DNA of 64,000 nt from a virus. Lineage: Duplodnaviria; Caudoviricetes. Of the stretch, positions 4,570 through 47,025 are shown one piece after another. The stretch spans positions 136,904-200,903 of IMG/VR virus record IMGVR_UViG_3300035698_013504. The stretch is one strand, 5' to 3'. The notes beneath the pieces were generated by a model. That model saw nothing but the letters and a program-made list of their open reading frames with translations. It ran no database searches and was not told the DNA's origin. The position numbers and the translations under genes were made by a program. Numbering within the stretch: the first letter of the stretch is position 1; every line of letters begins with the position of its first letter.

Positions 4570-5220
4570 TTGACACAGGATGTCCCTTCAGATAGCATGG
4601 TGGTTGGTAAAACACCATACAAGTCGGAGGTACTCCAGGTGGAAGTTCAAGTCTTAGCAAAGCACGACATCATCACAGATGGCGGGTTGTACATAGCGGA
4701 CACGGGCGCCACAGGTGTGGCGTTTGGTGACACGGCCCCTACCCAGGCACAGAATATCGGTAGGGTTGCGGTGCAGTGGGCCGGTAAGAGTCGTATCTAC
4801 TGGGTTGATGCAGAAGACCTCGTAGTACCCGACGGCCTAGACCCAGAGGATCTCGTGTCACAGCCTTCGAGTAAAGTATGTCTTAGTCTGCCTAAGTACC
4901 CGCCATCTTCGTTTCATTTTGGCACGAGCCTTCGGATGTTTCGTAAGGCGAGAGGCCTTGGCCAGAGTGCCCTGGCTGACAAGATGGGTGGTACTACGGG
5001 CCAGACAACCATTTCATTCTGGGAGAGGAAGGCGCATTGTCCGTCCGGCGAGTTCATCAAAGCAGTAGCTAACGCGCTGGATGTTCCGCCGTTCTTCTTC
5101 CTTGTGAGTAACAGTGACGCTGACGAGTCCGAACAGGAGCAGTTCATGGAAAATCTTTGTGAGAGTATTTCGGACGGCCTTGAGTGTCTACAACGCCTAA
5201 GGTCTCAAGTTTGTGGCTAA
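4570..5220 (+). CDS. XRE-family HTH domain protein
   Basis: LRMFRKARGLGQSALADKMGGTTGQTTISFWERKAHCPS...VANALDV Cro/C1-type HTH in the C-terminal half. Confidence 0.75.
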   Translation: MTQDVPSDSMVVGKTPYKSEVLQVEVQVLAKHDIITDGGLYIADTGATGVAFGDTAPTQAQNIGRVAVQWAGKSRIYWVDAEDLVVPDGLDPEDLVSQPSSKVCLSLPKYPPSSFHFGTSLRMFRKARGLGQSALADKMGGTTGQTTISFWERKAHCPSGEFIKAVANALDVPPFFFLVSNSDADESEQEQFMENLCESISDGLECLQRLRSQVCG

Positions 5221-40753: not shown

Positions 40754-40824
40754 GGGCGTCGAGGACATGCCCCACATCATGCGGATGACCTCCGCGTGTT
40801 GGTTCTCGGCGCCCACCTTCTTTT
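40754..40824 (+). terminator. Probable terminator ending the glycan cluster
   Basis: GGGCGTCGAGGA/TTCTCGGCGCCC stem followed by ACCTTCTTTT. Confidence 0.55.
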
Positions 40825-40847
40825 ATCGGGCAACGGGCAATAGTATG

Positions 40848-40876
40848 TTGACAATCAGCAACCACCATGCTAAGAT
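40848..40876 (+). promoter_or_regulatory. Sigma70-type promoter of the RNA island
   Basis: TTGACA-N17-TAAGAT with extended TG. Confidence 0.75.
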
Positions 40877-40948
40877 CTGAACTACATGGCGCAAGGCCAT
40901 TGATGGTTCTTTGACAACTTGGAACTACGAGTACACAGTTTCGGCGCG

Positions 40949-40992
40949 CTTCAGACTGGAGGTACTTCCTATTAAGAAATATCCCTCCCGTC
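40949..40992 (+). ncRNA. CUUCAG-N8-UACUUC stem module, copy 1 (short, Y-RNA-like)
   Basis: cttcag actggagg tacttc ...aaat atccctcccgtc; N8 pairs with the downstream segment. Confidence 0.55.
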
Positions 40993-41056
40993 GACTATTG
41001 CCGCCGAATTTCTTACTTGAGCCGCAGGCTAGGCTCACCACTACCGACTACTTCAC

Positions 41057-41428
41057 GGGGGTGAAAGGTATCGACAGGACGACTGAAGTATAGACGGCGT
41101 GCCGGAGTTGACCGAATGGCTCCGTTATCAAATCGGTTACACTTAAATTAAGTGACGAAGTTCCCATGCTCGCCGCTGCATAGCGGCCTCGGCCCAAGCG
41201 AGATTGCCTTGGTAGCTTGACGCTGAGACCATACAAAGGTTGACTGCTGGCAAGACAGCGGACATCTCCGGAAAGACGGGGTGCGGGATGGTCATACCCG
41301 CATACAACTCTGACCAAGGCTGCCTGGATGAGCCTGGTGACGTTTGGCCGAATCGCCTGGCTACGCACGTAGATGTTTATATCGAGGACGTAACTGGACC
41401 GGATTTTCAATGATCCGCACCTCCACCA
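41057..41428 (+). ncRNA. ssrA: tmRNA
   Basis: 5' GGGGGTGAAAGGTATCGAC; 3' CACCTCCACCA; 7-bp acceptor stem with G3-U; tag ORF 41154-41183 DEVPMLAAA*; 372 nt. Confidence 0.93.
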
Positions 41429-41459
41429 CTTTAACACTCAGCACAAAGGAGACCGGCTA

Positions 41460-42074
41460 GTGCCCAGAGACACGTTGTTCTACTACATCAGAAAAGCTGT
41501 GCTCATTCCGCGCGGCGTGCCGGAAGACGTTGCCGACAGGATGCGCAAGTACAAAGGCCGACCCAAGGGCGTGTTGGCCGCAACCACTGACGATCAGGGG
41601 AACCTGACCTTCGGCTTTTCGTTCTGCCACACGTCGCCCATATACCGCTCCCGGGACGCGGACCAGAGCGACCCGGATTTGGCCGCCGAGCTGGACTGTA
41701 TGCGCGGCGACTCGTTCAACAAAGTCATCGGGCGCAATATCGCCCTCGCGCGCGCAGAAAAGTACCGCGATGCCGGGCTGCAGTACATCGATAATCACTG
41801 GCACCTTGTCCGCGGAGAAAAGAAACTCGCCGTTCCGGAGGCGGTGCTAAAGGCGCTTCCGCGTTTCATCGCCCGCTCCCAGCGTTTCTTCTCTGATAAG
41901 AAGACGGACACCCGGTGGGTTAGCGGCCTACGTGTCGAAATCGACGCGGCCGTCGCCGCGACGGAGGCCTATCACGCAGCAAACACGAAGGCGCCGGAAG
42001 AAGATTCGGACGGAGGCACCGCAGACATCGGGAAAGTTGTTAGTGACGCCGCGGCTGTGGCCAAACGCGAGTAA
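41460..42074 (+). CDS. Hypothetical phage protein
   Basis: RBS AAGGAG; GFSFCH...DSFNKVIGRNIALARA. Confidence 0.7.
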   Translation: MPRDTLFYYIRKAVLIPRGVPEDVADRMRKYKGRPKGVLAATTDDQGNLTFGFSFCHTSPIYRSRDADQSDPDLAAELDCMRGDSFNKVIGRNIALARAEKYRDAGLQYIDNHWHLVRGEKKLAVPEAVLKALPRFIARSQRFFSDKKTDTRWVSGLRVEIDAAVAATEAYHAANTKAPEEDSDGGTADIGKVVSDAAAVAKRE

Positions 42075-42095
42075 TACACAACACTTCAGGGTGTA

Positions 42096-42215
42096 CTTCA
42101 GGTAAGGGATACTTCAATCAACTCTGCAGGTTACCGGTTCGAGTCCGGTTGCGTACCTTCGGGGCGCATAGCTCAATCGGTAGAGCGGCAGATCCAAAAG
42201 ACCCTCACCGCTTTT
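42096..42215 (+). ncRNA. YrlA-like RNA with circularly permuted tRNA domain (module copy 2)
   Basis: Order: module 5' strand, anticodon-stem 3' strand TCTGC, variable loop, T arm ACCGG-TTCGAGT-CCGGT, acceptor stem closed by cUUCGg, D arm GCTC...GAGC, GCAGA, module 3' strand. Confidence 0.85.
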
Positions 42216-42240
42216 CGTCACCCTTTTCATTACAAGTTAG

Positions 42241-42384
42241 CATGGCGGCGGTGTGGAAGGACACACCCCATGACAGATGGACGCTGCGGAATAACAGACG
42301 GCAGGCAGCACGTGCCCTAATAAGGTACGGGCGGTCACGGCCGAATACGTGGCACTAGTCGGTTTCGAGTCCGGCACGCCGTGT
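42241..42384 (+). ncRNA. tRNA-like RNA with expanded central domain
   Basis: 7-bp acceptor CATGGCG/CGCCGTG, 6-bp D-like stem, T-like arm with 8-nt loop; four hairpins in place of the anticodon/variable arms. Confidence 0.7.
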
Positions 42385-42427
42385 GTTTTGTCTCTACTGA
42401 TCTTTACGCTTGTTGCCTTAACTTGAC

Positions 42428-42568
42428 GGGGAGTTACTGGATCAGTGTCCGGACACAATTCGGTTTTGAGCCTACGTACGTGGGTGATGCCGTGGAATGC
42501 TTACGCTGTACAGAAGACACTGAGCTCAAAGCGATGCATTTCGGCCAGTCGATACGCTCTCCCCACCA
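42428..42568 (+). ncRNA. CCA-ended structured RNA with acceptor-like stem
   Basis: GGGGAG pairs with CTCCCC followed by A-CCA; nested stems ACTGG/CCAGT and CAGTGTC/GACACTG. Confidence 0.65.
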
Positions 42569-42587
42569 TTTTAGATAGGAGACCCAG

Positions 42588-42893
42588 ATGTCCGAAGTTC
42601 CAGGAAACATTCCCGCACCGGAGGAGCCCGCCTCGCAGGTCTTGGCGCAACGTCGTGCCATAGATGAAGTCCAGGAGGAGGTCCACGTGGATCTATGCGA
42701 GTTACGCAGGCGTCTCGGCCAGGTGCTGCGTGACGAAGGTAAGGAGCTGGTTCCTGACGCTGCGACCGCTGTCGCTGATGCGGTTAAGGAGGAGCAGCTT
42801 GTGCCTCTTGCTAACCACCTACGAGACATGAAGCATAAGTCGGAATCGTTCCGCAATTCCATCCGTAACCTACTCGAGCGCCTTGAGCTGTAA
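42588..42893 (+). CDS. Hypothetical coiled-coil protein
   Basis: RBS AGGAG. Confidence 0.7.
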   Translation: MSEVPGNIPAPEEPASQVLAQRRAIDEVQEEVHVDLCELRRRLGQVLRDEGKELVPDAATAVADAVKEEQLVPLANHLRDMKHKSESFRNSIRNLLERLEL

Positions 42894-42919
42894 CCACAGC
42901 CAGGCATAGGAGAAAGAAG

Positions 42920-43345
42920 ATGGGCTCTACACCAAGCAATAAAGACGGCGGATGTTCTCTCTTACATGACCTTTGGAGAAGGTCTGTAGGTATGGAACCC
43001 AGACCGTCTACGGTGTTGATGCCCGATCTTGCATCTCTGAGGCAGACCGAGTGGTCTGATACGTTCGAGCAGTACATGCGCAACAGACTCGTCTTCGGGG
43101 CCGTCAGGTACGGCCTGGTTGGCGACAAGGGCAAACCCCGGTACGACCGGATCAAGTCGATACGCCAGAGACTTGACGCGTACGAAGAAACGGGGAATGA
43201 TGAACATCTGGTAGACGTCGCGAATATGGCCCAGCTCGAGTTTATCGAGGGGATTCATCCCAACAAGCATTTCGCGTCTATCGATGACGGTGTTCACACA
43301 CCAGTTTGCTCAGGTACTCTTCAGGCACGGGTTACTTCCCTTTAG
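42920..43345 (+). CDS. Conserved phage protein, possible nucleotide pyrophosphohydrolase-like
   Basis: MRNRLVFGAVRYG...EHLVDVAN; the last codons overlap the 5' end of an RNA module. Confidence 0.6.
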   Translation: MGSTPSNKDGGCSLLHDLWRRSVGMEPRPSTVLMPDLASLRQTEWSDTFEQYMRNRLVFGAVRYGLVGDKGKPRYDRIKSIRQRLDAYEETGNDEHLVDVANMAQLEFIEGIHPNKHFASIDDGVHTPVCSGTLQARVTSL

Positions 43346-43438
43346 GAGGGCGAGGTCATGGGTTCGAATCCCATTACCCGACTAATACTCGGGTATAGCT
43401 CAGAGGCAGAGCGCGCTTGTAAACCTGTACCGCTTTTT
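43319..43438 (+). ncRNA. YrlA-like RNA with circularly permuted tRNA domain (module copy 3)
   Basis: GGGCG/CGCTT anticodon stem, AGGTC variable loop, T arm ATGGG-TTCGAAT-CCCAT, perfect 7-bp acceptor TACCCGA/TCGGGTA closed by a loop, D arm GCTC...GAGC. Confidence 0.88.
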
Positions 43439-43480
43439 GGTGCCGAGCATTTTCTTTTGAAGCGGCGGCGGACGTCAGTC

Positions 43481-43579
43481 CAGCGTATGGTGTAACGGTT
43501 AACATTCTGTCGAAACAGTTACTCTCTGACGAGATTGGCTAAAGTAGGCGGGCTACGGGTTCGAATCCCGTTGCGTAGC
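43481..43579 (+). ncRNA. tRNA-like RNA lacking a canonical anticodon arm
   Basis: Acceptor CAGCGTA/TGCGTAG, D arm GTGT-AACGGTTA-ACAT, T arm ACGGG-TTCGAAT-CCCGT; 49 nt with short hairpins between D and T arms. Confidence 0.7.
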
Positions 43580-43609
43580 TGCTTCACATTTGATGGGACG
43601 ATGGTATAC

Positions 43610-43652
43610 CTTCAGCGGTGGGTTACTTCAATTGCTGAAAAAACCCCACTGC
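43610..43652 (+). ncRNA. CUUCAG-N8-UACUUC stem module, copy 4 (short)
   Basis: cttcag cggtgggt tacttc aattgctg aaaaaa ccccactgc. Confidence 0.6.
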
Positions 43653-43710
43653 ATCTATTGGACCTAGTCCCTCCTTATTGTTCTGCCCTGGAGGTTATAC
43701 CACCTCCCTC

Positions 43711-44052
43711 TGTCCTTTAGCGGGGATGGACGTCTAACGTCGCTGGCCAAGCGGCTGTAGACGCTAATCAAATAGGTCTCGCCACCCGGGCGAGTAGGGA
43801 TGTAGCTACCGAAAGCGCGCACCTTGATCTTTGGATATAGGGTGCAATCGATTAGTAGGTGTACGCCATCTTTCTATCATAGGTTCTTAACATGCTGCGG
43901 TACCACAGCTATGCCTGGATCACCGGTACGGACTTCGGTCCGGGGCAGTTCATCTTATTACGTTTGCCGCTGGGGTTCCCTCGTTAAAGTGGCCCGCTGC
44001 GGCGCCGCCCCCTCGGCGCCGTTTCGAAGGGCCTCAGCGGCTCTACAGGACA
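43711..44052 (+). ncRNA. Unknown ~340-nt multidomain structured RNA
   Basis: Closing stem TGTCCTTTAG/CTACAGGACA; nested GATGG/CCATC, CTAATC/GATTAG, CGTCTA/TAGACG, GCACCTT/AGGGTGC, CGGAC-TTCG-GTCCG, CCGCTGGGG/CCTCAGCGG. Confidence 0.65.
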
Positions 44053-44073
44053 TGAATGATGAGGTGTACTAGA

Positions 44074-44125
44074 CTTCAGGTAGGGGCTACTTCTATCCTA
44101 CAAGAAAAATACCCCAACTGACTTT
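44074..44125 (+). ncRNA. CUUCAG-N8-UACUUC stem module, copy 5, in the TROVE leader
   Basis: cttcag gtaggggc tacttc ...aaaaat accccaactg acttttg; ends ~75 nt before the TROVE start. Confidence 0.6.
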
Positions 44126-44195
44126 TGTCAGTCACCTCTCCCATTGTTGGCAGCCCTCTACGGAGCTGCTCTTGAAAGAACAGGGGGAACACACG

Positions 44196-46022
44196 ATGGC
44201 ACGATCGTTCCGCCGTATCTTGCGCGACGGCGCGCGAAAGAACGCGTTACCTTCCAACCGCCCCGATGCCACGGTTAACCGAGCTGGCGGCGTCTCCTTC
44301 GAGATCGCCGACCCGGCTACCAAGCTCATCACCATGACTGGTGGGGCGTTCTTTGGTGAGCCGAGGTTCTATTCAGGTTCCGACTGTGTACCCGTCCGGT
44401 CGTTCGGCGGGGCGTTCGCACCCTTGCAGGCACGTCTGGAGATCGCCAGGGACAAGTCTGTATCGTTCGCACGCTGCGAGGAGCTCGATGACACGGCACA
44501 GGAGATCATCGCAACGATCTTGGCTGTGCTCGATGGCGACACCCCAGAAGATGCGTTGGTTATCGCGGCGTGGCTGCGTAACGACGCAAACATCAGGCTC
44601 ACCCCCCAGGTGATCCTCACGCTTGCCGCCAATCACGAGAATGGCAAACCCTTCGTGCGCAAGTATGCGCCGAAGATCATGCTACGTCCGGATGAGGCGA
44701 AGACGAACCTCCTGTTGCACCGGTTCTTCTTTGGCTCGCGTAACCTGCCGAATAGCCTCAACAAAGCCATCGGTGACGGAGTCGCTCGCTTTGGCGAGTG
44801 GGGACTCATCAAGTATGATACGCCCTCCTTCCCCCGCTGGAAGGATGTGCTTCGTTGGATCAAGCGCCGCAACGGGTGGCCCCTCTCAAGAGGGCTGGCC
44901 CGCTACTTCACCCATGGTGAGGTGGATCGTGACGCTACTCCGATCGCCTATGCTCGCAGCCTCTTGGCTCAGAAGACTACCTTCGACACCGAGACTCGCG
45001 AGTTGATCACGGCCAGCCGTGCGACCTGGGAAGTCGTGATGTCTCAGTTCGGCCCACAGGACAAGACACGGGCCTGGGAGTACCTGGTTTTCGAGAACCT
45101 GTTGGGCTATATGGCCACGATGCGCAACCTGCGTAACATGGCTCAGGCCAACGTCAGCTCCCTGTGCGTCGACGCCGTTTGCAGAAAGCTTGTCAACCCC
45201 GAGGAAGTGGCAACAAGTAGGCAACTGCCTTATCGCTTCCTTGCCGCAAACAATGCCCTCTGGGGTAGCCCCGATCGGTTTGGTGGCAACAGCCGCGATA
45301 ACCGCATGGTGTCCCAGTGGCGCGTTAACCCGGTTGTTGGCGGGGGAGGCCTCTCCGGCTTCCGCGGGCTGAGTAAGTTCACAGATGCTCTCGATGAAGC
45401 CGCGGACATGTCCGTGAAGAACGTGCCTGTGTTGCCGGGCCAGACGGCCGTCCTTGTGGACGAGTCCAGCTCTATGCGTCAGCCGATCTCGGAGAAGTCG
45501 CAGATGCTAGTCTGTGACGCGTCGAATATGCTGGCGGGTATTATCGGGCGTGTCTCGGCCGATACGATCCTGTTGCCGTTCGGTGGTACCGTCGAGCATG
45601 TCCCCTGTCGTCATAGGGATACGGTGATCAGCATCGCAGAGAGGTGCGCGGCGGCCAATGTCGGCCACTCGACGAATACGTACCTCGGTATCCAGTACCT
45701 GATCGACAACGACATCGCGCCCGACCGGATTGTCATTCTGTCGGATGCACAAGCGTGGAACAGCTACAGCCGATCGTCGGGCTCGTTGCCTGACACGGTA
45801 CAGCAATACCGCCGCGGTTCGGCGATTGCAAAGGACACATGGATTCACAGTGTTCACGTCAACGGTTACGGCGACGACCCTATCCCCCCCGGTCCCCGTG
45901 TTAACCTCGTTTCTGGGTGGACGGACAAGATCGTGGACTCCATGCTTCACTGCGAAGGTGGCGTTGAGGGAGAAGAAGCGCTGGCGACCATCGACTACAT
46001 CAGAGCCAGGTGGTGTAATTAG
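44196..46022 (+). CDS. Ro60/TROVE-domain RNA-binding protein with vWA domain
   Basis: NRAGGVSF, FFGEPRFY, RNDANIRLTP, KYD, TWE, YMATMRNLRNM, LPYRF, vWA VDESSSM and LSDAQ. Confidence 0.92.
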   Translation: MARSFRRILRDGARKNALPSNRPDATVNRAGGVSFEIADPATKLITMTGGAFFGEPRFYSGSDCVPVRSFGGAFAPLQARLEIARDKSVSFARCEELDDTAQEIIATILAVLDGDTPEDALVIAAWLRNDANIRLTPQVILTLAANHENGKPFVRKYAPKIMLRPDEAKTNLLLHRFFFGSRNLPNSLNKAIGDGVARFGEWGLIKYDTPSFPRWKDVLRWIKRRNGWPLSRGLARYFTHGEVDRDATPIAYARSLLAQKTTFDTETRELITASRATWEVVMSQFGPQDKTRAWEYLVFENLLGYMATMRNLRNMAQANVSSLCVDAVCRKLVNPEEVATSRQLPYRFLAANNALWGSPDRFGGNSRDNRMVSQWRVNPVVGGGGLSGFRGLSKFTDALDEAADMSVKNVPVLPGQTAVLVDESSSMRQPISEKSQMLVCDASNMLAGIIGRVSADTILLPFGGTVEHVPCRHRDTVISIAERCAAANVGHSTNTYLGIQYLIDNDIAPDRIVILSDAQAWNSYSRSSGSLPDTVQQYRRGSAIAKDTWIHSVHVNGYGDDPIPPGPRVNLVSGWTDKIVDSMLHCEGGVEGEEALATIDYIRARWCN

Positions 46023-46052
46023 ATGTAGCACCACCACAAACAAATACGCAAG

Positions 46053-46089
46053 GAGCTGGTCACACGTTGTGACCAGCTCTTGTTCTTTA
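46053..46089 (+). terminator. Intrinsic terminator after TROVE
   Basis: 12-bp GAGCTGGTCACA/TGTGACCAGCTC stem followed by TTGTTCTTT. Confidence 0.8.
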
Positions 46090-46110
46090 GTCTCGCCTCA
46101 GGAGGGTACG

Positions 46111-47025
46111 ATGACCATCGTGACTCATGGTGGTACGGCCCACGCCGATGAGGTCATGTCGATTGCGCTGCTCGTATTGCGTGATGAGCATGTCCGCGCG
46201 GCGTACCGAAGACAGGCCCTCGATATCAAACGTGTCGCAAACTTCATGGATGACACGATTGCCCCGGGCGACTGGGTGTTGGATGTCGGGCTGATACATG
46301 ATCCCGAACGTTTGCGATTTGACCATCACCAGCAAAGGCCGCCCGTTGATAGCACGTTCAGTTTGCTCGCTAAGCATTTCGGGCTACATGAGACGCTGTC
46401 AACATGCACCTCGTGGTACAACCAGATCGTGTGCGTAGACGTACACGGCCCTATAAAGTACATGGAGAGCCTTGGGTTCTCAGACCCTACGATGGATACA
46501 TTCACCAGTGTGTTCAGCACCAGCATCCTTCAATGGTTTGTCACTCAGTTTGAGCGCCTGCCCATTGTTGGTATTGACTTGGCCGTACCTTGGCTAACCG
46601 AGCGTATCTCTGAGGCCCAGTCGATACGACTACGAGTTGATGAGCTGCTGGACACGGCGTCGGTATTTGGTAACGTAGTTGTCTTCCCGGATGCCGCGAC
46701 ACCTTTCGGCACAGGTTTGGCTATTCGCGAGCTTGTCTCGAGAAGTGATGTCTTTCTTGACATCGCCGTATCTATTCTCCCTGACAGTCGTGACAAAGGC
46801 ATGTGGTCGCTTATGCGGCTAGACGACGACGCAAGGGTAGACATGTTACGCATCGAAGAATTACCCTTTGTGGAGTTCGTACACGCCAACGGCTTTCTTG
46901 CCAAGGTGCGGTGCTCACTTCCTGAGGCTATTCAGCTTGCACAACAAACCATAAGGGAGGACGATGAGGATGTCTGGGAACGAAAGCACGACCGATGGCT
47001 TCAAGGAAAGCCTGGAAGATCTTAA
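46111..47025 (+). CDS. MYG1-family (UPF0160) nuclease/hydrolase
   Basis: VTHGGTAHADE, VLDVG...DP...FDHHQ, FVHANGF. Confidence 0.8.
   Translation: MTIVTHGGTAHADEVMSIALLVLRDEHVRAAYRRQALDIKRVANFMDDTIAPGDWVLDVGLIHDPERLRFDHHQQRPPVDSTFSLLAKHFGLHETLSTCTSWYNQIVCVDVHGPIKYMESLGFSDPTMDTFTSVFSTSILQWFVTQFERLPIVGIDLAVPWLTERISEAQSIRLRVDELLDTASVFGNVVVFPDAATPFGTGLAIRELVSRSDVFLDIAVSILPDSRDKGMWSLMRLDDDARVDMLRIEELPFVEFVHANGFLAKVRCSLPEAIQLAQQTIREDDEDVWERKHDRWLQGKPGRS

What the first reader, a model, noticed from the sequence alone, without database searches (positions are those of the whole stretch)
40949..44125. Five copies of a CUUCAG-N8-UACUUC stem module: candidate new Ro60-binding element
Seen: CTTCAG-(8 nt)-TACTTC occurs with exact spacing at 40949, 42096, 43319, 43610 and 44074. 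In each copy the variable 8-mer pairs with a downstream segment after an A-run, so the stem sequence covaries while the flanks are invariant. Two copies enclose a tRNA domain and three enclose only a 10-15 nt loop. A partial tandem copy (cttcag-ggtg-tacttc) sits at 42084. Inference: a modular protein-binding platform (probably Ro60) with swappable cargo; the copy in the TROVE leader could autoregulate Ro60.
Basis: partly seen in the sequence, partly recalled or inferred. Interest (0 to 1): 0.82.

Follow-up and report, generated by a model that had tools for sequence, protein, structure and literature searches.

The report
Five phage Y-RNA-like genes beside Ro60
A 200-kb uncultured salt-lake phage carries five small RNA genes of the Y-RNA type next to its Ro60 gene; all share a conserved stem-and-loop platform whose invariant letters differ from the canonical Ro60-binding motif, so this is a new sequence variant of a known RNA class, not a new kind of element.

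Summary
CTTCAG-N8-TACTTC occurs five times, all on the + strand, and nowhere else in the 200,903-bp phage genome (0.01 expected by chance).

Each copy is a complete small RNA with this layout:
- P1
- an internal loop (5' R-CUUCA against 3' G-AYUUWUY-G)
- an 8-bp stem, P2
- UAC
- a cargo

The cargo is a short hairpin in three copies. In two it is a YrlA-type permuted tRNA-like domain.

Both stems covary strongly in relatives. About 94% of cells are paired, against 36-49% in slid controls.

Loci retrieved only through the neighbouring Ro60/TROVE protein carry the module upstream on the same strand in 14 of 14 viral loci and 36 of 46 metagenome loci. CUUC and UACUUC are near-invariant there.

The RNAs lack the canonical GNCGAA/CGAA Ro motif and score below Rfam's YrlA cut-off.

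My reading is a divergent phage subfamily of Y RNAs (YrlA/YrlB type) with its own candidate Ro60-recognition signature. Ro60 binding is inferred, not shown. Autoregulation of Ro60 by the last copy has no support. Other notes of this scan flagged the same stretch.

The parts
40848..40876 (+). Sigma-70-like promoter (TTGACA, 17-nt spacer, TAAGAT, with a TG extension). It is a candidate start of the transcript that carries RNA 1 and the tmRNA.
   Evidence: 10 of 12 consensus matches. This is a consensus match only; the number of such sites in the region is not above the shuffled expectation.
40940..41008 (+). Y-like RNA 1, short form. Layout: P1 UUCGGCG/CGCCGAA, loop CG-CUUCA, P2, UAC, small UUC/GAA hairpin, 3' loop G-ACUAUU-GC.
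   Evidence: Motif. MFE -24.1 kcal/mol, z -3.5. Model R1 scores 73.3 bits, though this copy is one of the seed sequences.
41057..41428 (+). tmRNA gene, 49 nt downstream of RNA 1.
   Evidence: Rfam RF00023, 76.7 bits against a gathering score of 47, full length. ARAGORN does not call it.
42088..42224 (+). Y-like RNA 2, the same platform carrying a YrlA-type permuted tRNA-like domain: T arm 42133-42149, closed acceptor-like hairpin 42150-42168, D arm 42171-42186.
   Evidence: Rfam YrlA 34.8 bits, below the gathering score of 69. The de novo consensus structure with relatives recovers P1, P2, T arm, acceptor hairpin and D arm. MFE -47, z -2.6.
43308..43448 (+). Y-like RNA 3, the same platform with a tRNA-like domain: T arm 43358-43374, acceptor-like hairpin 43375-43395, D arm 43398-43412. 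Its 5' end overlaps the last 38 nt of ORF 42920-43345.
   Evidence: Rfam YrlA 29.0 bits, below the gathering score. Alignment and covariation. MFE -51.4, z -2.2. Sub-part coordinates.
43595..43671 (+). Y-like RNA 4, short form. P1 is interrupted by an internal loop and P2 has one bulged C.
   Evidence: Motif. MFE -27.2, z -3.5. R1 scores 58.7 bits, seed sequence.
44061..44138 (+). Y-like RNA 5, short form. It ends 58 nt upstream of the Ro60 start codon.
   Evidence: Motif. MFE -24.6, z -3.0. R1 scores 64.5 bits, seed sequence.
44196..46022 (+). Ro60 (TROVE) gene, 608 aa, the presumed protein partner of the five RNAs.
   Evidence: Pfam TROVE 73.4 bits, E 2.7e-20. A profile of the clade finds only Ro60 chains in the PDB. 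The AlphaFold model (pLDDT 69, pTM 0.66) has all 13 top fold matches in Ro60 structures, target TM 0.57-0.66.
46114..47025 (+). MYG1-like (UPF0160) putative exonuclease gene directly downstream of Ro60. This is context only.
   Evidence: Pfam MYG1_exonuc 45.4 bits. Start inferred from the MTIVTHGG... N-terminus. No homologue within 4 kb of Ro60 in 14 related loci.

Best explanation
The five copies are paralogous genes for small non-coding RNAs of the Y-RNA class, YrlA-like when they carry a tRNA-like domain and YrlB-like when they carry only a hairpin. They are encoded upstream of, and on the same strand as, a divergent phage Ro60.

Each RNA closes its 5' and 3' ends into a long stem. That stem is made of P1, an asymmetric internal loop (5' R-CUUCA opposite 3' G-AYUUWUY-G), an 8-bp G-rich stem P2, and a second loop beginning with UAC. 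This invariant platform most likely is the docking site for the phage Ro60. It takes the place of the canonical GNCGAA/CGAA-containing stem. The variable apical part is the effector module that brings another partner to Ro60.

Shown: the RNA structure, the conservation of the loop letters, the linkage to Ro60 genes, and the Ro60 fold of the neighbouring protein.

Inferred: transcription and processing from a polycistronic RNA island, Ro60 binding, and the tethering function.
For: - Occurrence: five exact copies, + strand only, nowhere else in the genome.
- Folding: all five fold into P1/P2 by minimum free energy, z -2.2 to -3.5.
- Covariation of the short forms: 15 sequences, 94.3% of cells paired, 14 of 14 pairs with compensatory changes, slid controls 40-46%.
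- Covariation of 39 distinct sequences from metagenome loci found through Ro60: 94.1% paired against 36-49% slid.
- tRNA-like forms, on a MAFFT alignment not fitted to any model: 94.6% paired, 25 of 34 pairs compensatory.
- RNA rather than DNA: many G-U pairs and one-strand orientation point to RNA.
- Loop letters in the 39 sequences: CUUC 38-39 of 39 and UACUUC 39 of 39. The last G of CUUCAG covaries with its partner (G-C or A-U). The 3' loop keeps U, U and GG in 38-39 of 39.
- Linkage: all 14 viral loci retrieved through the Ro60 protein alone carry the motif upstream on the same strand. So do 36 of 46 metagenome loci with at least 400 nt of upstream sequence.
- YrlA likeness: copies 2 and 3 match Rfam YrlA at 34.8 and 29 bits through the T arm, closed acceptor and D arm in the YrlA order. 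YrlA-model matches upstream of the Ro gene of Caulobacter phage CcrColossus, a phage reported to encode Y-like RNAs, score no better (42, 31 and 30 bits).
- Shared layout with the Rfam YrlA consensus: 6-7 bp P1, a 5-6 nt loop containing GCU, a 7-8 bp GGG-rich P2 followed by UA, and a U-rich 8-9 nt 3' loop.
- The neighbouring protein is a Ro60 by Pfam, PDB profile and fold.
Against: - There is no binding or expression evidence of any kind.
- The canonical GNCGAAN0-1G / CGAA motif is absent from the 5' strand of all five RNAs. Each base of that motif contributes to binding in the Thermus phage phiLo system (PMC12135203).
- The Rfam YrlA matches are far below the gathering score. That model also gives matches at E <= 1 in 13 of 14 control genomes, so those matches alone prove little.
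- In a related 253-kb phage record, seven of eight copies lie 38-56 kb from Ro60, some inside a tRNA array. Adjacency to Ro60 is therefore not obligatory.
- Alignments A5 and A7 were fitted to my model, which favours the structure. A6 was not.
Confidence: 0.72

Rival explanations
1. The platform is real RNA, but its invariant loops are bound by a protein other than Ro60, such as a phage or host tRNA/tmRNA-handling factor. The link to Ro60 would reflect only common residence in a phage 'RNA island' with tmRNA and tRNA genes.
For: In relatives the modules sit between a tmRNA and a tRNA-Met gene, and in three records inside tRNA arrays. In one 253-kb record seven of eight copies lie 38-56 kb from Ro60. 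The canonical CGAA Ro motif is missing.
Against: Every record known to hold the module and long enough to judge also encodes this Ro60 clade. The pattern scan of 185,579 prokaryote species genomes found one true copy, again beside this Ro60. No other protein gene is conserved next to the modules. The overall layout is that of Y RNAs.
Confidence: 0.12
2. The P1/loop/P2 cassette is mainly a processing and stability signal. It would let a nuclease such as RNase III or RNase E cut small RNAs out of a long transcript and protect their ends. The conserved letters would be the nuclease's recognition site rather than a Ro60 site.
For: Only one strong promoter-like site precedes the whole 3.3-kb RNA region. 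The RNAs are interleaved with other non-coding RNAs and small ORFs, which suggests polycistronic transcription. Mycobacterial YrlA and YrlB are processed from a single precursor (PMC4201824).
Against: Processing signals of host nucleases would not be expected to track one Ro60 clade or to be absent from other phages' tRNA arrays. Twenty conserved positions spread over two loops and a stem is more than known RNase III or RNase E determinants need (my own knowledge). This rival is compatible with, rather than exclusive of, Ro60 binding.
Confidence: 0.08
3. Copy 5 is a cis-acting leader through which Ro60 represses or stabilises its own mRNA.
For: Copy 5 ends 58 nt before the Ro60 start codon. 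In a few relatives the last module ends 65-80 nt before it (L169, L170, L194). Co-transcription with Ro60 is therefore likely.
Against: The module is a closed structure that does not overlap the GGGGGA ribosome-binding site or the start codon. In 10 of 11 viral relatives scanned with ARAGORN a tRNA-Met gene lies upstream of Ro60, in most of them 90-200 nt before it and after the last module. Four identical platforms lie up to 3 kb away. Nothing distinguishes copy 5 from them.
Confidence: 0.05
4. The repeats act at the DNA level, as operators, promoters or recombination sites.
For: They are a dispersed repeated motif with fixed spacing in intergenic DNA.
Against: Compensatory changes keep the pairing while the sequence changes. 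G-U pairs are frequent, for example 11 of 39 at one P2 position, and would be A-C mismatches on the other strand. All copies have the same orientation as Ro60 in every locus.
Confidence: 0.02

Closest known systems
YrlA / YrlB bacterial and phage Y RNAs (Rfam RF02553; Chen et al. 2014, PMC4201824)
   Same: - Encoded close to, and on the same strand as, a Ro60 orthologue, with several per locus.
- The 5' and 3' ends form a long stem with an asymmetric internal loop and a G-rich second helix followed by UA.
- The design is modular.
- Two copies carry the YrlA-specific permuted tRNA-like domain (T arm, acceptor stem closed by a loop, UA linker, D arm with GG).
- Three copies are simple hairpins, like YrlB.
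   Different: - There is no GNCGAAN0-1G / CGAA motif.
- Instead CUUC(A)G, G-N-G, UACUUC and a 3' UU-U-GG loop are near-invariant.
- Scores are 29-35 bits against a gathering score of 69, and the platform part is not matched by the Rfam model.
- The short forms match no Rfam family at all.
- There are five copies here and eight in one relative.
- A third cargo type occurs in relatives: 130-260 nt with several hairpins carrying GGAAGAC-like loops.
Yrl1 / Yrl2 of Thermus phage phiLo with phage Ro60 (PMC12135203; PDB 9KOP, 9L5Y)
   Same: Phage-encoded Ro60 with two or more Y-like RNAs directly upstream and a stem-bulge-stem layout. phiLo Ro60 is the best PDB match of the protein here by sequence profile and by fold.
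   Different: The phiLo RNAs were found through, and depend on, the CGAA motif, which is absent here. The protein is only about 19% identical over the aligned model and carries roughly 100 extra N-terminal residues of low model confidence.
Y-like RNAs beside the Ro genes of Arthrobacter phage Atuin and Caulobacter phage CcrColossus
   Same: Multiple copies flank Ro, and YrlA matches are below the Rfam cut-off (31.7 bits in Atuin; 42.3, 30.5 and 29.9 bits in CcrColossus). In Atuin all three RNAs carry UACUUC right after P2, and the two short ones also show the UUC/GAA mini-helix. UACUUC or UUCUUC also occurs in CcrColossus.
   Different: Their first internal loop reads GCGCU (Atuin), or follows a GGCGUAG-type, CGAA-like motif (CcrColossus), instead of CUUCA. 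Their Ro proteins are at most 29% identical to the one here.
Metazoan and Deinococcus Y RNAs (Rfam RF00019 class)
   Same: A Ro60-binding stem formed by the RNA ends, with conservation concentrated on the 5' strand and a variable effector loop (10.1101/312249).
   Different: There is no GGUCCGA/bulged-C helix and no detectable sequence similarity. No Rfam match appeared even at E <= 10.

Membership tests
YrlA (Rfam RF02553; Chen et al. 2014) | Encoded near a Ro60 orthologue (within about 2 kb) on the same strand | tested here: met
   RNA 5 ends 58 nt, and RNA 1 begins 3.3 kb, upstream of the Ro60 gene, all on the + strand. The same holds in 14 of 14 viral and 36 of 46 metagenome loci found through Ro60.
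YrlA (Rfam RF02553; Chen et al. 2014) | The 5' and 3' ends pair into a long stem that carries the Ro60-binding module | tested here: met
   P1 and P2 are supported by MFE folds and covariation.
YrlA (Rfam RF02553; Chen et al. 2014) | GNCGAAN0-1G (CGAA) motif near the 5' end | tested here: not met
   There is no G.CGAA or CGAA in the 5' strand of any of the five RNAs. The only hits are in the 3' P1 strand of RNA 1 and the T loop of RNA 3.
YrlA (Rfam RF02553; Chen et al. 2014) | tRNA-like effector domain: T arm, closed acceptor stem, UA linker, D arm | tested here: met
   Met for RNAs 2 and 3 only. RNAs 1, 4 and 5 have a short hairpin instead, as YrlB does.
YrlA (Rfam RF02553; Chen et al. 2014) | Score at or above the Rfam gathering threshold (69 bits) | tested here: not met
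   34.8 and 29.0 bits. YrlA-model matches beside the Ro gene of CcrColossus, a phage reported to encode Y-like RNAs, also fall below it.
Y RNA (functional class) | Stable association with Ro60 protein | not testable with these tools
   There is no RNA-protein modelling tool and no RNA data. This needs gel shift or immunoprecipitation.
Ro60 / TROVE protein (partner gene 44196-46022) | TROVE domain, HEAT-repeat ring plus C-terminal vWA domain | tested here: met
   Pfam TROVE scores 73.4 bits against a cut-off of 23. The Ro60 vWA domain scores 25.9, just under its cut-off of 27.7. The PDB profile finds only Ro60 chains. In the fold search the 13 best matches are all Ro60, and the vWA domains rank next.

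The most novel reading that the evidence does not exclude
This Ro60 clade of uncultured large phages has switched its RNA recognition code from the CGAA stem to the CUUCA / UACUUC double-loop platform. That would give the phage a private set of Ro60 particles that host Ro60 and host Y RNAs cannot cross-load. The platform would then be used as a general adaptor to present up to eight different effector modules (tRNA mimics, hairpins, multi-hairpin arrays) during infection. In this phage, which has no tRNA genes, it might replace or decoy tRNA-directed host functions.
Probability: 0.3. Interest if true: 0.62.

Novelty: new variant of a known kind. Interest (0 to 1): 0.47.

Why it matters
Y RNAs are the obligatory partners of Ro60 from bacteria to humans. 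How Ro60 recognises them outside animals rests on one short motif, CGAA. Here is a well-populated natural family that keeps the Y-RNA architecture and the Ro60 linkage but has replaced that motif with another, equally invariant signature. It has at least 39 distinct sequences and 1-8 copies per phage.

The family gives a ready-made comparative system for studying co-evolution of Ro60 with its RNA. It offers a covariance model that finds Y RNAs which Rfam misses. It also shows that phages multiply and re-equip one docking platform with different cargos.

A cultured relative of the RNA design, Arthrobacter phage Atuin, makes part of this testable at the bench. The finding does not change the current picture of what Ro60 particles are.

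Tried and rejected
- blastn of 40800-46100 against 50,697 phage records gave no match.
- The search for related loci with the single Ro60 protein gave nothing. It worked only with an alignment of the clade.
- Sequencing runs: the stretch is held by salt-lake metagenome DNA runs and no RNA holder is listed. Expression, ends and processing therefore could not be examined, and read laying was not used.
- Model R1, built from short forms, does not span long cargos. Copies 2 and 3 score only about 12 bits with it, so the tRNA-like forms were analysed separately.
- I considered the MYG1-like nuclease downstream of Ro60 as the dedicated effector, by analogy with PNPase. I dropped this because it and the other neighbours have no homologues in 14 related loci and no other conserved domain lies downstream of Ro60 there.
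- The GGCACG that precedes CUUCAG in relatives looked like a sigma-54 -24 box. I rejected this because no TTGC follows at the right distance, and the letters are the covarying end of P1.
- Host assignment failed. The only true hit in prokaryote genomes is a 3.2-kb contig binned into a Gemmatimonadota MAG, which is too short to trust. The presence of a tmRNA argues for a bacterial host (my own knowledge).
- A literature search for the motif letters together with Ro60 found nothing relevant. The 2020 review PMC10870794 is not held.
- I did not examine the Ro60 residues that contact RNA. The N-terminal half, where phiLo Ro60's RNA-binding residues lie, does not align by sequence and is modelled with low confidence at its start.


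Full report
**Setting.** The window is the last 64 kb of a 200,903-bp virus record with direct terminal repeats, rated complete. DNA runs that hold the stretch are salt-lake metagenomes. No cultured phage has similar DNA. Genes around the finding all read on the + strand. Upstream lies a nonulosonic-acid/glycosyl-transferase cluster. Then comes a 3.3-kb stretch poor in convincing ORFs, then a TROVE/Ro60 gene at 44196-46022 and a MYG1-like gene.

**Observation.** The pattern CTTCAG-N8-TACTTC matches exactly five times, at the coordinates given, all on the + strand. Chance expectation is 0.01. There are no further matches in the whole genome on either strand.

Relatives and a constrained parse show that the sequence just upstream of CUUCAG pairs with sequence that follows a conserved U-rich stretch downstream. 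Each copy is therefore a closed RNA:
- an outer stem, P1;
- an internal loop, 5' R-CUUCA opposite 3' G-AYUUWUY-G;
- an inner stem, P2, formed by the G of CUUCAG plus seven of the 'eight' variable bases;
- UAC opposite an A-rich strand;
- in the short forms, a three-pair UUC/GAA helix closing a small loop.

The five RNAs span 40940-41008, 42088-42224, 43308-43448, 43595-43671 and 44061-44138. All fold this way by minimum free energy, with z-scores of -2.2 to -3.5.

Copies 2 and 3 enclose about 85 nt containing a T arm, an acceptor-like stem closed by a loop, a UA linker and a D arm with GG. The 'partial tandem copy' at 42084 is the P1 strand of copy 2 preceded by one stray CTTCAG.

**Relatives found through the motif.** A scan of IMG/VR for the motif gave many chance hits plus a set of loci with two or three copies each. 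A tblastn search with the window's Ro60 showed a 42-46% identical Ro60 within 0.2-2 kb of the motif in seven of them.

**Relatives found without the motif.** To remove the circularity of finding relatives by the motif, I aligned eight Ro60 proteins (A3) and retrieved loci through the protein alone.
- All 14 viral loci carry the motif, with at most two mismatches, upstream on the same strand.
- Of 46 metagenome loci with at least 400 nt of upstream sequence, 36 carry it. Most of these matches have zero or one mismatch, where about 0.007 matches per 3 kb are expected by chance (my arithmetic).

The usual gene order in relatives is tmRNA, a module with long cargo, a short module, tRNA-Met, Ro60. 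Several loci have three short modules in tandem directly before Ro60. One 253-kb record has eight copies: one beside Ro60 and seven 38-56 kb away, partly inside a tRNA array. A scan of one genome from each of 185,579 prokaryote species found a single true copy, on a 3.2-kb contig that also encodes this Ro60.

**Structure.** I built a covariance model from eight short forms (R1).
- Fifteen strong matches are 94.3% paired, all 14 pairs show compensatory changes, and slid controls give 40-46%.
- Thirty-nine distinct matches from the Ro60-anchored metagenome loci are 94.1% paired, against 36-49% slid.
- These two alignments are fitted to the model. An independent MAFFT/RNAalifold analysis of eight tRNA-like forms recovers P1, P2, the T arm, the acceptor hairpin and the D arm de novo. 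It is 94.6% paired, and 25 of 34 pairs show compensatory changes.

Frequent G-U pairs and the constant orientation exclude a DNA-level element.

Among the 39 sequences, CUUC is present in 38-39 and UACUUC in all 39. The A of CUUCAG is present in 34. The G is present in 33 and covaries with its partner (C in 30, U in 9). The 3' loop keeps two U and the GG in 38-39. These counts lean slightly towards the model because the model was used for detection.

**Relation to known Y RNAs.** Bacterial and phage Y RNAs (YrlA, YrlB) have four defining properties. They lie within about 2 kb of Ro60. They are modular. They form a long stem from their ends. They carry a GNCGAAN0-1G motif on the 5' strand that is thought to contact Ro60. 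At least one RNA per species has a tRNA-like domain, and 22 phages were already listed (PMC4201824; 10.1101/312249). In Thermus phage phiLo, two such RNAs upstream of the phage Ro60 bind it, and each base of CGAA matters (PMC12135203).

Here, Rfam's YrlA model matches copies 2 and 3 at 34.8 and 29.0 bits, below the gathering score of 69. The matches run through the tRNA-like domain in the YrlA order, and the platform helix is flagged as unmatched. The short copies match nothing in Rfam even at E <= 10. Sub-threshold YrlA matches are weak evidence by themselves, because the model also gives matches in 13 of 14 control genomes. However, the matches this model gives beside the Ro gene of CcrColossus, a phage reported to encode Y-like RNAs (PMC12135203, citing Chen et al. 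2014), score no better: 42, 31 and 30 bits.

The CGAA motif is absent from the 5' strands of all five RNAs. The layout is nevertheless the same as the Rfam YrlA consensus: P1 of 6-7 pairs, a 5-6 nt loop containing GCU, a 7-8 pair GGG-rich P2 followed by UA, and an 8-9 nt U-rich loop on the 3' side.

Arthrobacter phage Atuin's Ro is 29% identical. It has three Y-like RNAs around its Ro gene that carry UACUUC after P2, with the UUC/GAA helix in the two short ones, but GCGCU in the first loop. UACUUC or UUCUUC also occurs in CcrColossus. So UACUUC is shared more widely among phage Y-like RNAs, while CUUCA in place of the CGAA region marks the clade studied here. This pattern looks like divergence within one family rather than independent invention. 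That is my inference.

**The protein.** The neighbouring gene product has a Pfam TROVE domain (73.4 bits). A profile of the clade finds only Ro60 chains in the PDB, with phiLo Ro60 the best. An AlphaFold model (pLDDT 69, pTM 0.66) has all 13 top fold matches in Ro60 structures from phage, human, frog and Deinococcus. Cultured phages have at most 29% identical homologues.

**Mechanism.** The best-supported reading has five parts:
1. The region is transcribed from the strong promoter-like site at 40848-40876, and possibly from others.
2. The small RNAs are cut out of that transcript.
3. The P1/loop/P2/UAC platform docks the phage Ro60.
4. The apical module brings a second partner.
5. That module is a tRNA mimic in two RNAs, a small hairpin in three, and a multi-hairpin array in relatives.

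Only the RNA structure, the conservation and the genomic linkage are shown. Transcription, processing, binding and function are inferred. Confidence is about 0.72.

**Rivals.**
- Another protein binds the platform (0.12). This is favoured by copies far from Ro60 and by the missing CGAA. It is disfavoured by the strict co-occurrence with this Ro60 clade and by the lack of any other conserved neighbour.
- The cassette is mainly a processing or stability signal (0.08). This is not exclusive of Ro60 binding.
- Copy 5 autoregulates Ro60 (0.05). The module does not touch the ribosome-binding site, and a tRNA-Met gene usually intervenes in relatives.
- The repeats act at the DNA level (0.02).

**Novelty and weight.** Phage Ro60 genes with several Y-like RNAs are known, so the kind is known. 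Several things are new:
- the invariant CUUCA/UACUUC signature replacing CGAA;
- a family definition with strong covariation that Rfam does not capture;
- the degree of multiplication, five copies here and eight in a relative;
- the range of cargos on one platform.

I rate it a new variant of a known kind, of moderate interest. Other notes of this scan had already flagged the same stretch as an expanded Y-RNA repertoire. My analysis reached the same reading before I read those notes.

Noticed in passing
window 42240-42384: A tRNA-shaped RNA without the platform. It has an 8-bp closing (acceptor-like) stem next to a T arm (GUCGG-UUUCGAGU-CCGGC), with several hairpins in between. MFE -61.4, z -2.6. 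There is no Rfam or ARAGORN hit.
   Followed up: partly
window 43458-43586: A second T-arm-bearing RNA (ACGGG-UUCGAAU-CCCGU), closed by a 9-bp stem between GAAGCGGCG and GCUGCUUC, z -2.2. It occupies the region where relatives carry a normal tRNA-Met gene, but it is not a tRNA by ARAGORN or Rfam.
   Followed up: partly
window 43672-44060: A 389-nt stretch without a convincing ORF between RNAs 4 and 5. It folds much better than shuffles (MFE -153 kcal/mol, z -3.0) and matches no Rfam family. It may be a large structured RNA.
   Followed up: partly
window 41019-41056: Between RNA 1 and the tmRNA lies a mini-helix, GAGCC-loop-GGCUC, followed by ACCA (41019-41040). A sixth UACUUC lies at 41049, two bases before the tmRNA 5' end.
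   Followed up: no
whole genome (G000): ARAGORN finds no tRNA gene in the entire 200-kb phage and does not call the tmRNA that Rfam scores at 76.7 bits. Related phages carry tRNA-Met before Ro60 and arrays of 14-31 tRNAs.
   Followed up: partly
L124:3481-3680, L125:2926-3120, L127:3501-3716: In relatives the first module encloses a 130-260 nt cargo made of three to five hairpins whose loops read GGAAGAC, CAAAGAC or GAAAGAC. This looks like an array of sites for an unknown binder.
   Followed up: no
G002 (record of L066/L128), positions 68029-125582: A 253-kb phage record holds eight copies of the platform: one 0.5 kb before Ro60, four about 38 kb away and three about 56 kb away inside a tRNA array.
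   Followed up: partly
L166 (Arthrobacter phage Atuin) 2246-2313, 4547-4619, about 4862-4985: A cultured phage has three unannotated Y-like RNAs flanking its Ro gene among tRNA genes. They carry UACUUC after P2, and the two short ones have a UUC/GAA mini-helix. This is a possible laboratory model.
   Followed up: partly
window 46114-47025: A MYG1-like (UPF0160) putative exonuclease gene lies directly after Ro60. It is not conserved beside Ro60 in relatives.
   Followed up: partly
L086:9784-9860: A type-P5 twister ribozyme match just over the Rfam cut-off (38.0 against 37.6 bits) in a related phage contig.
   Followed up: no
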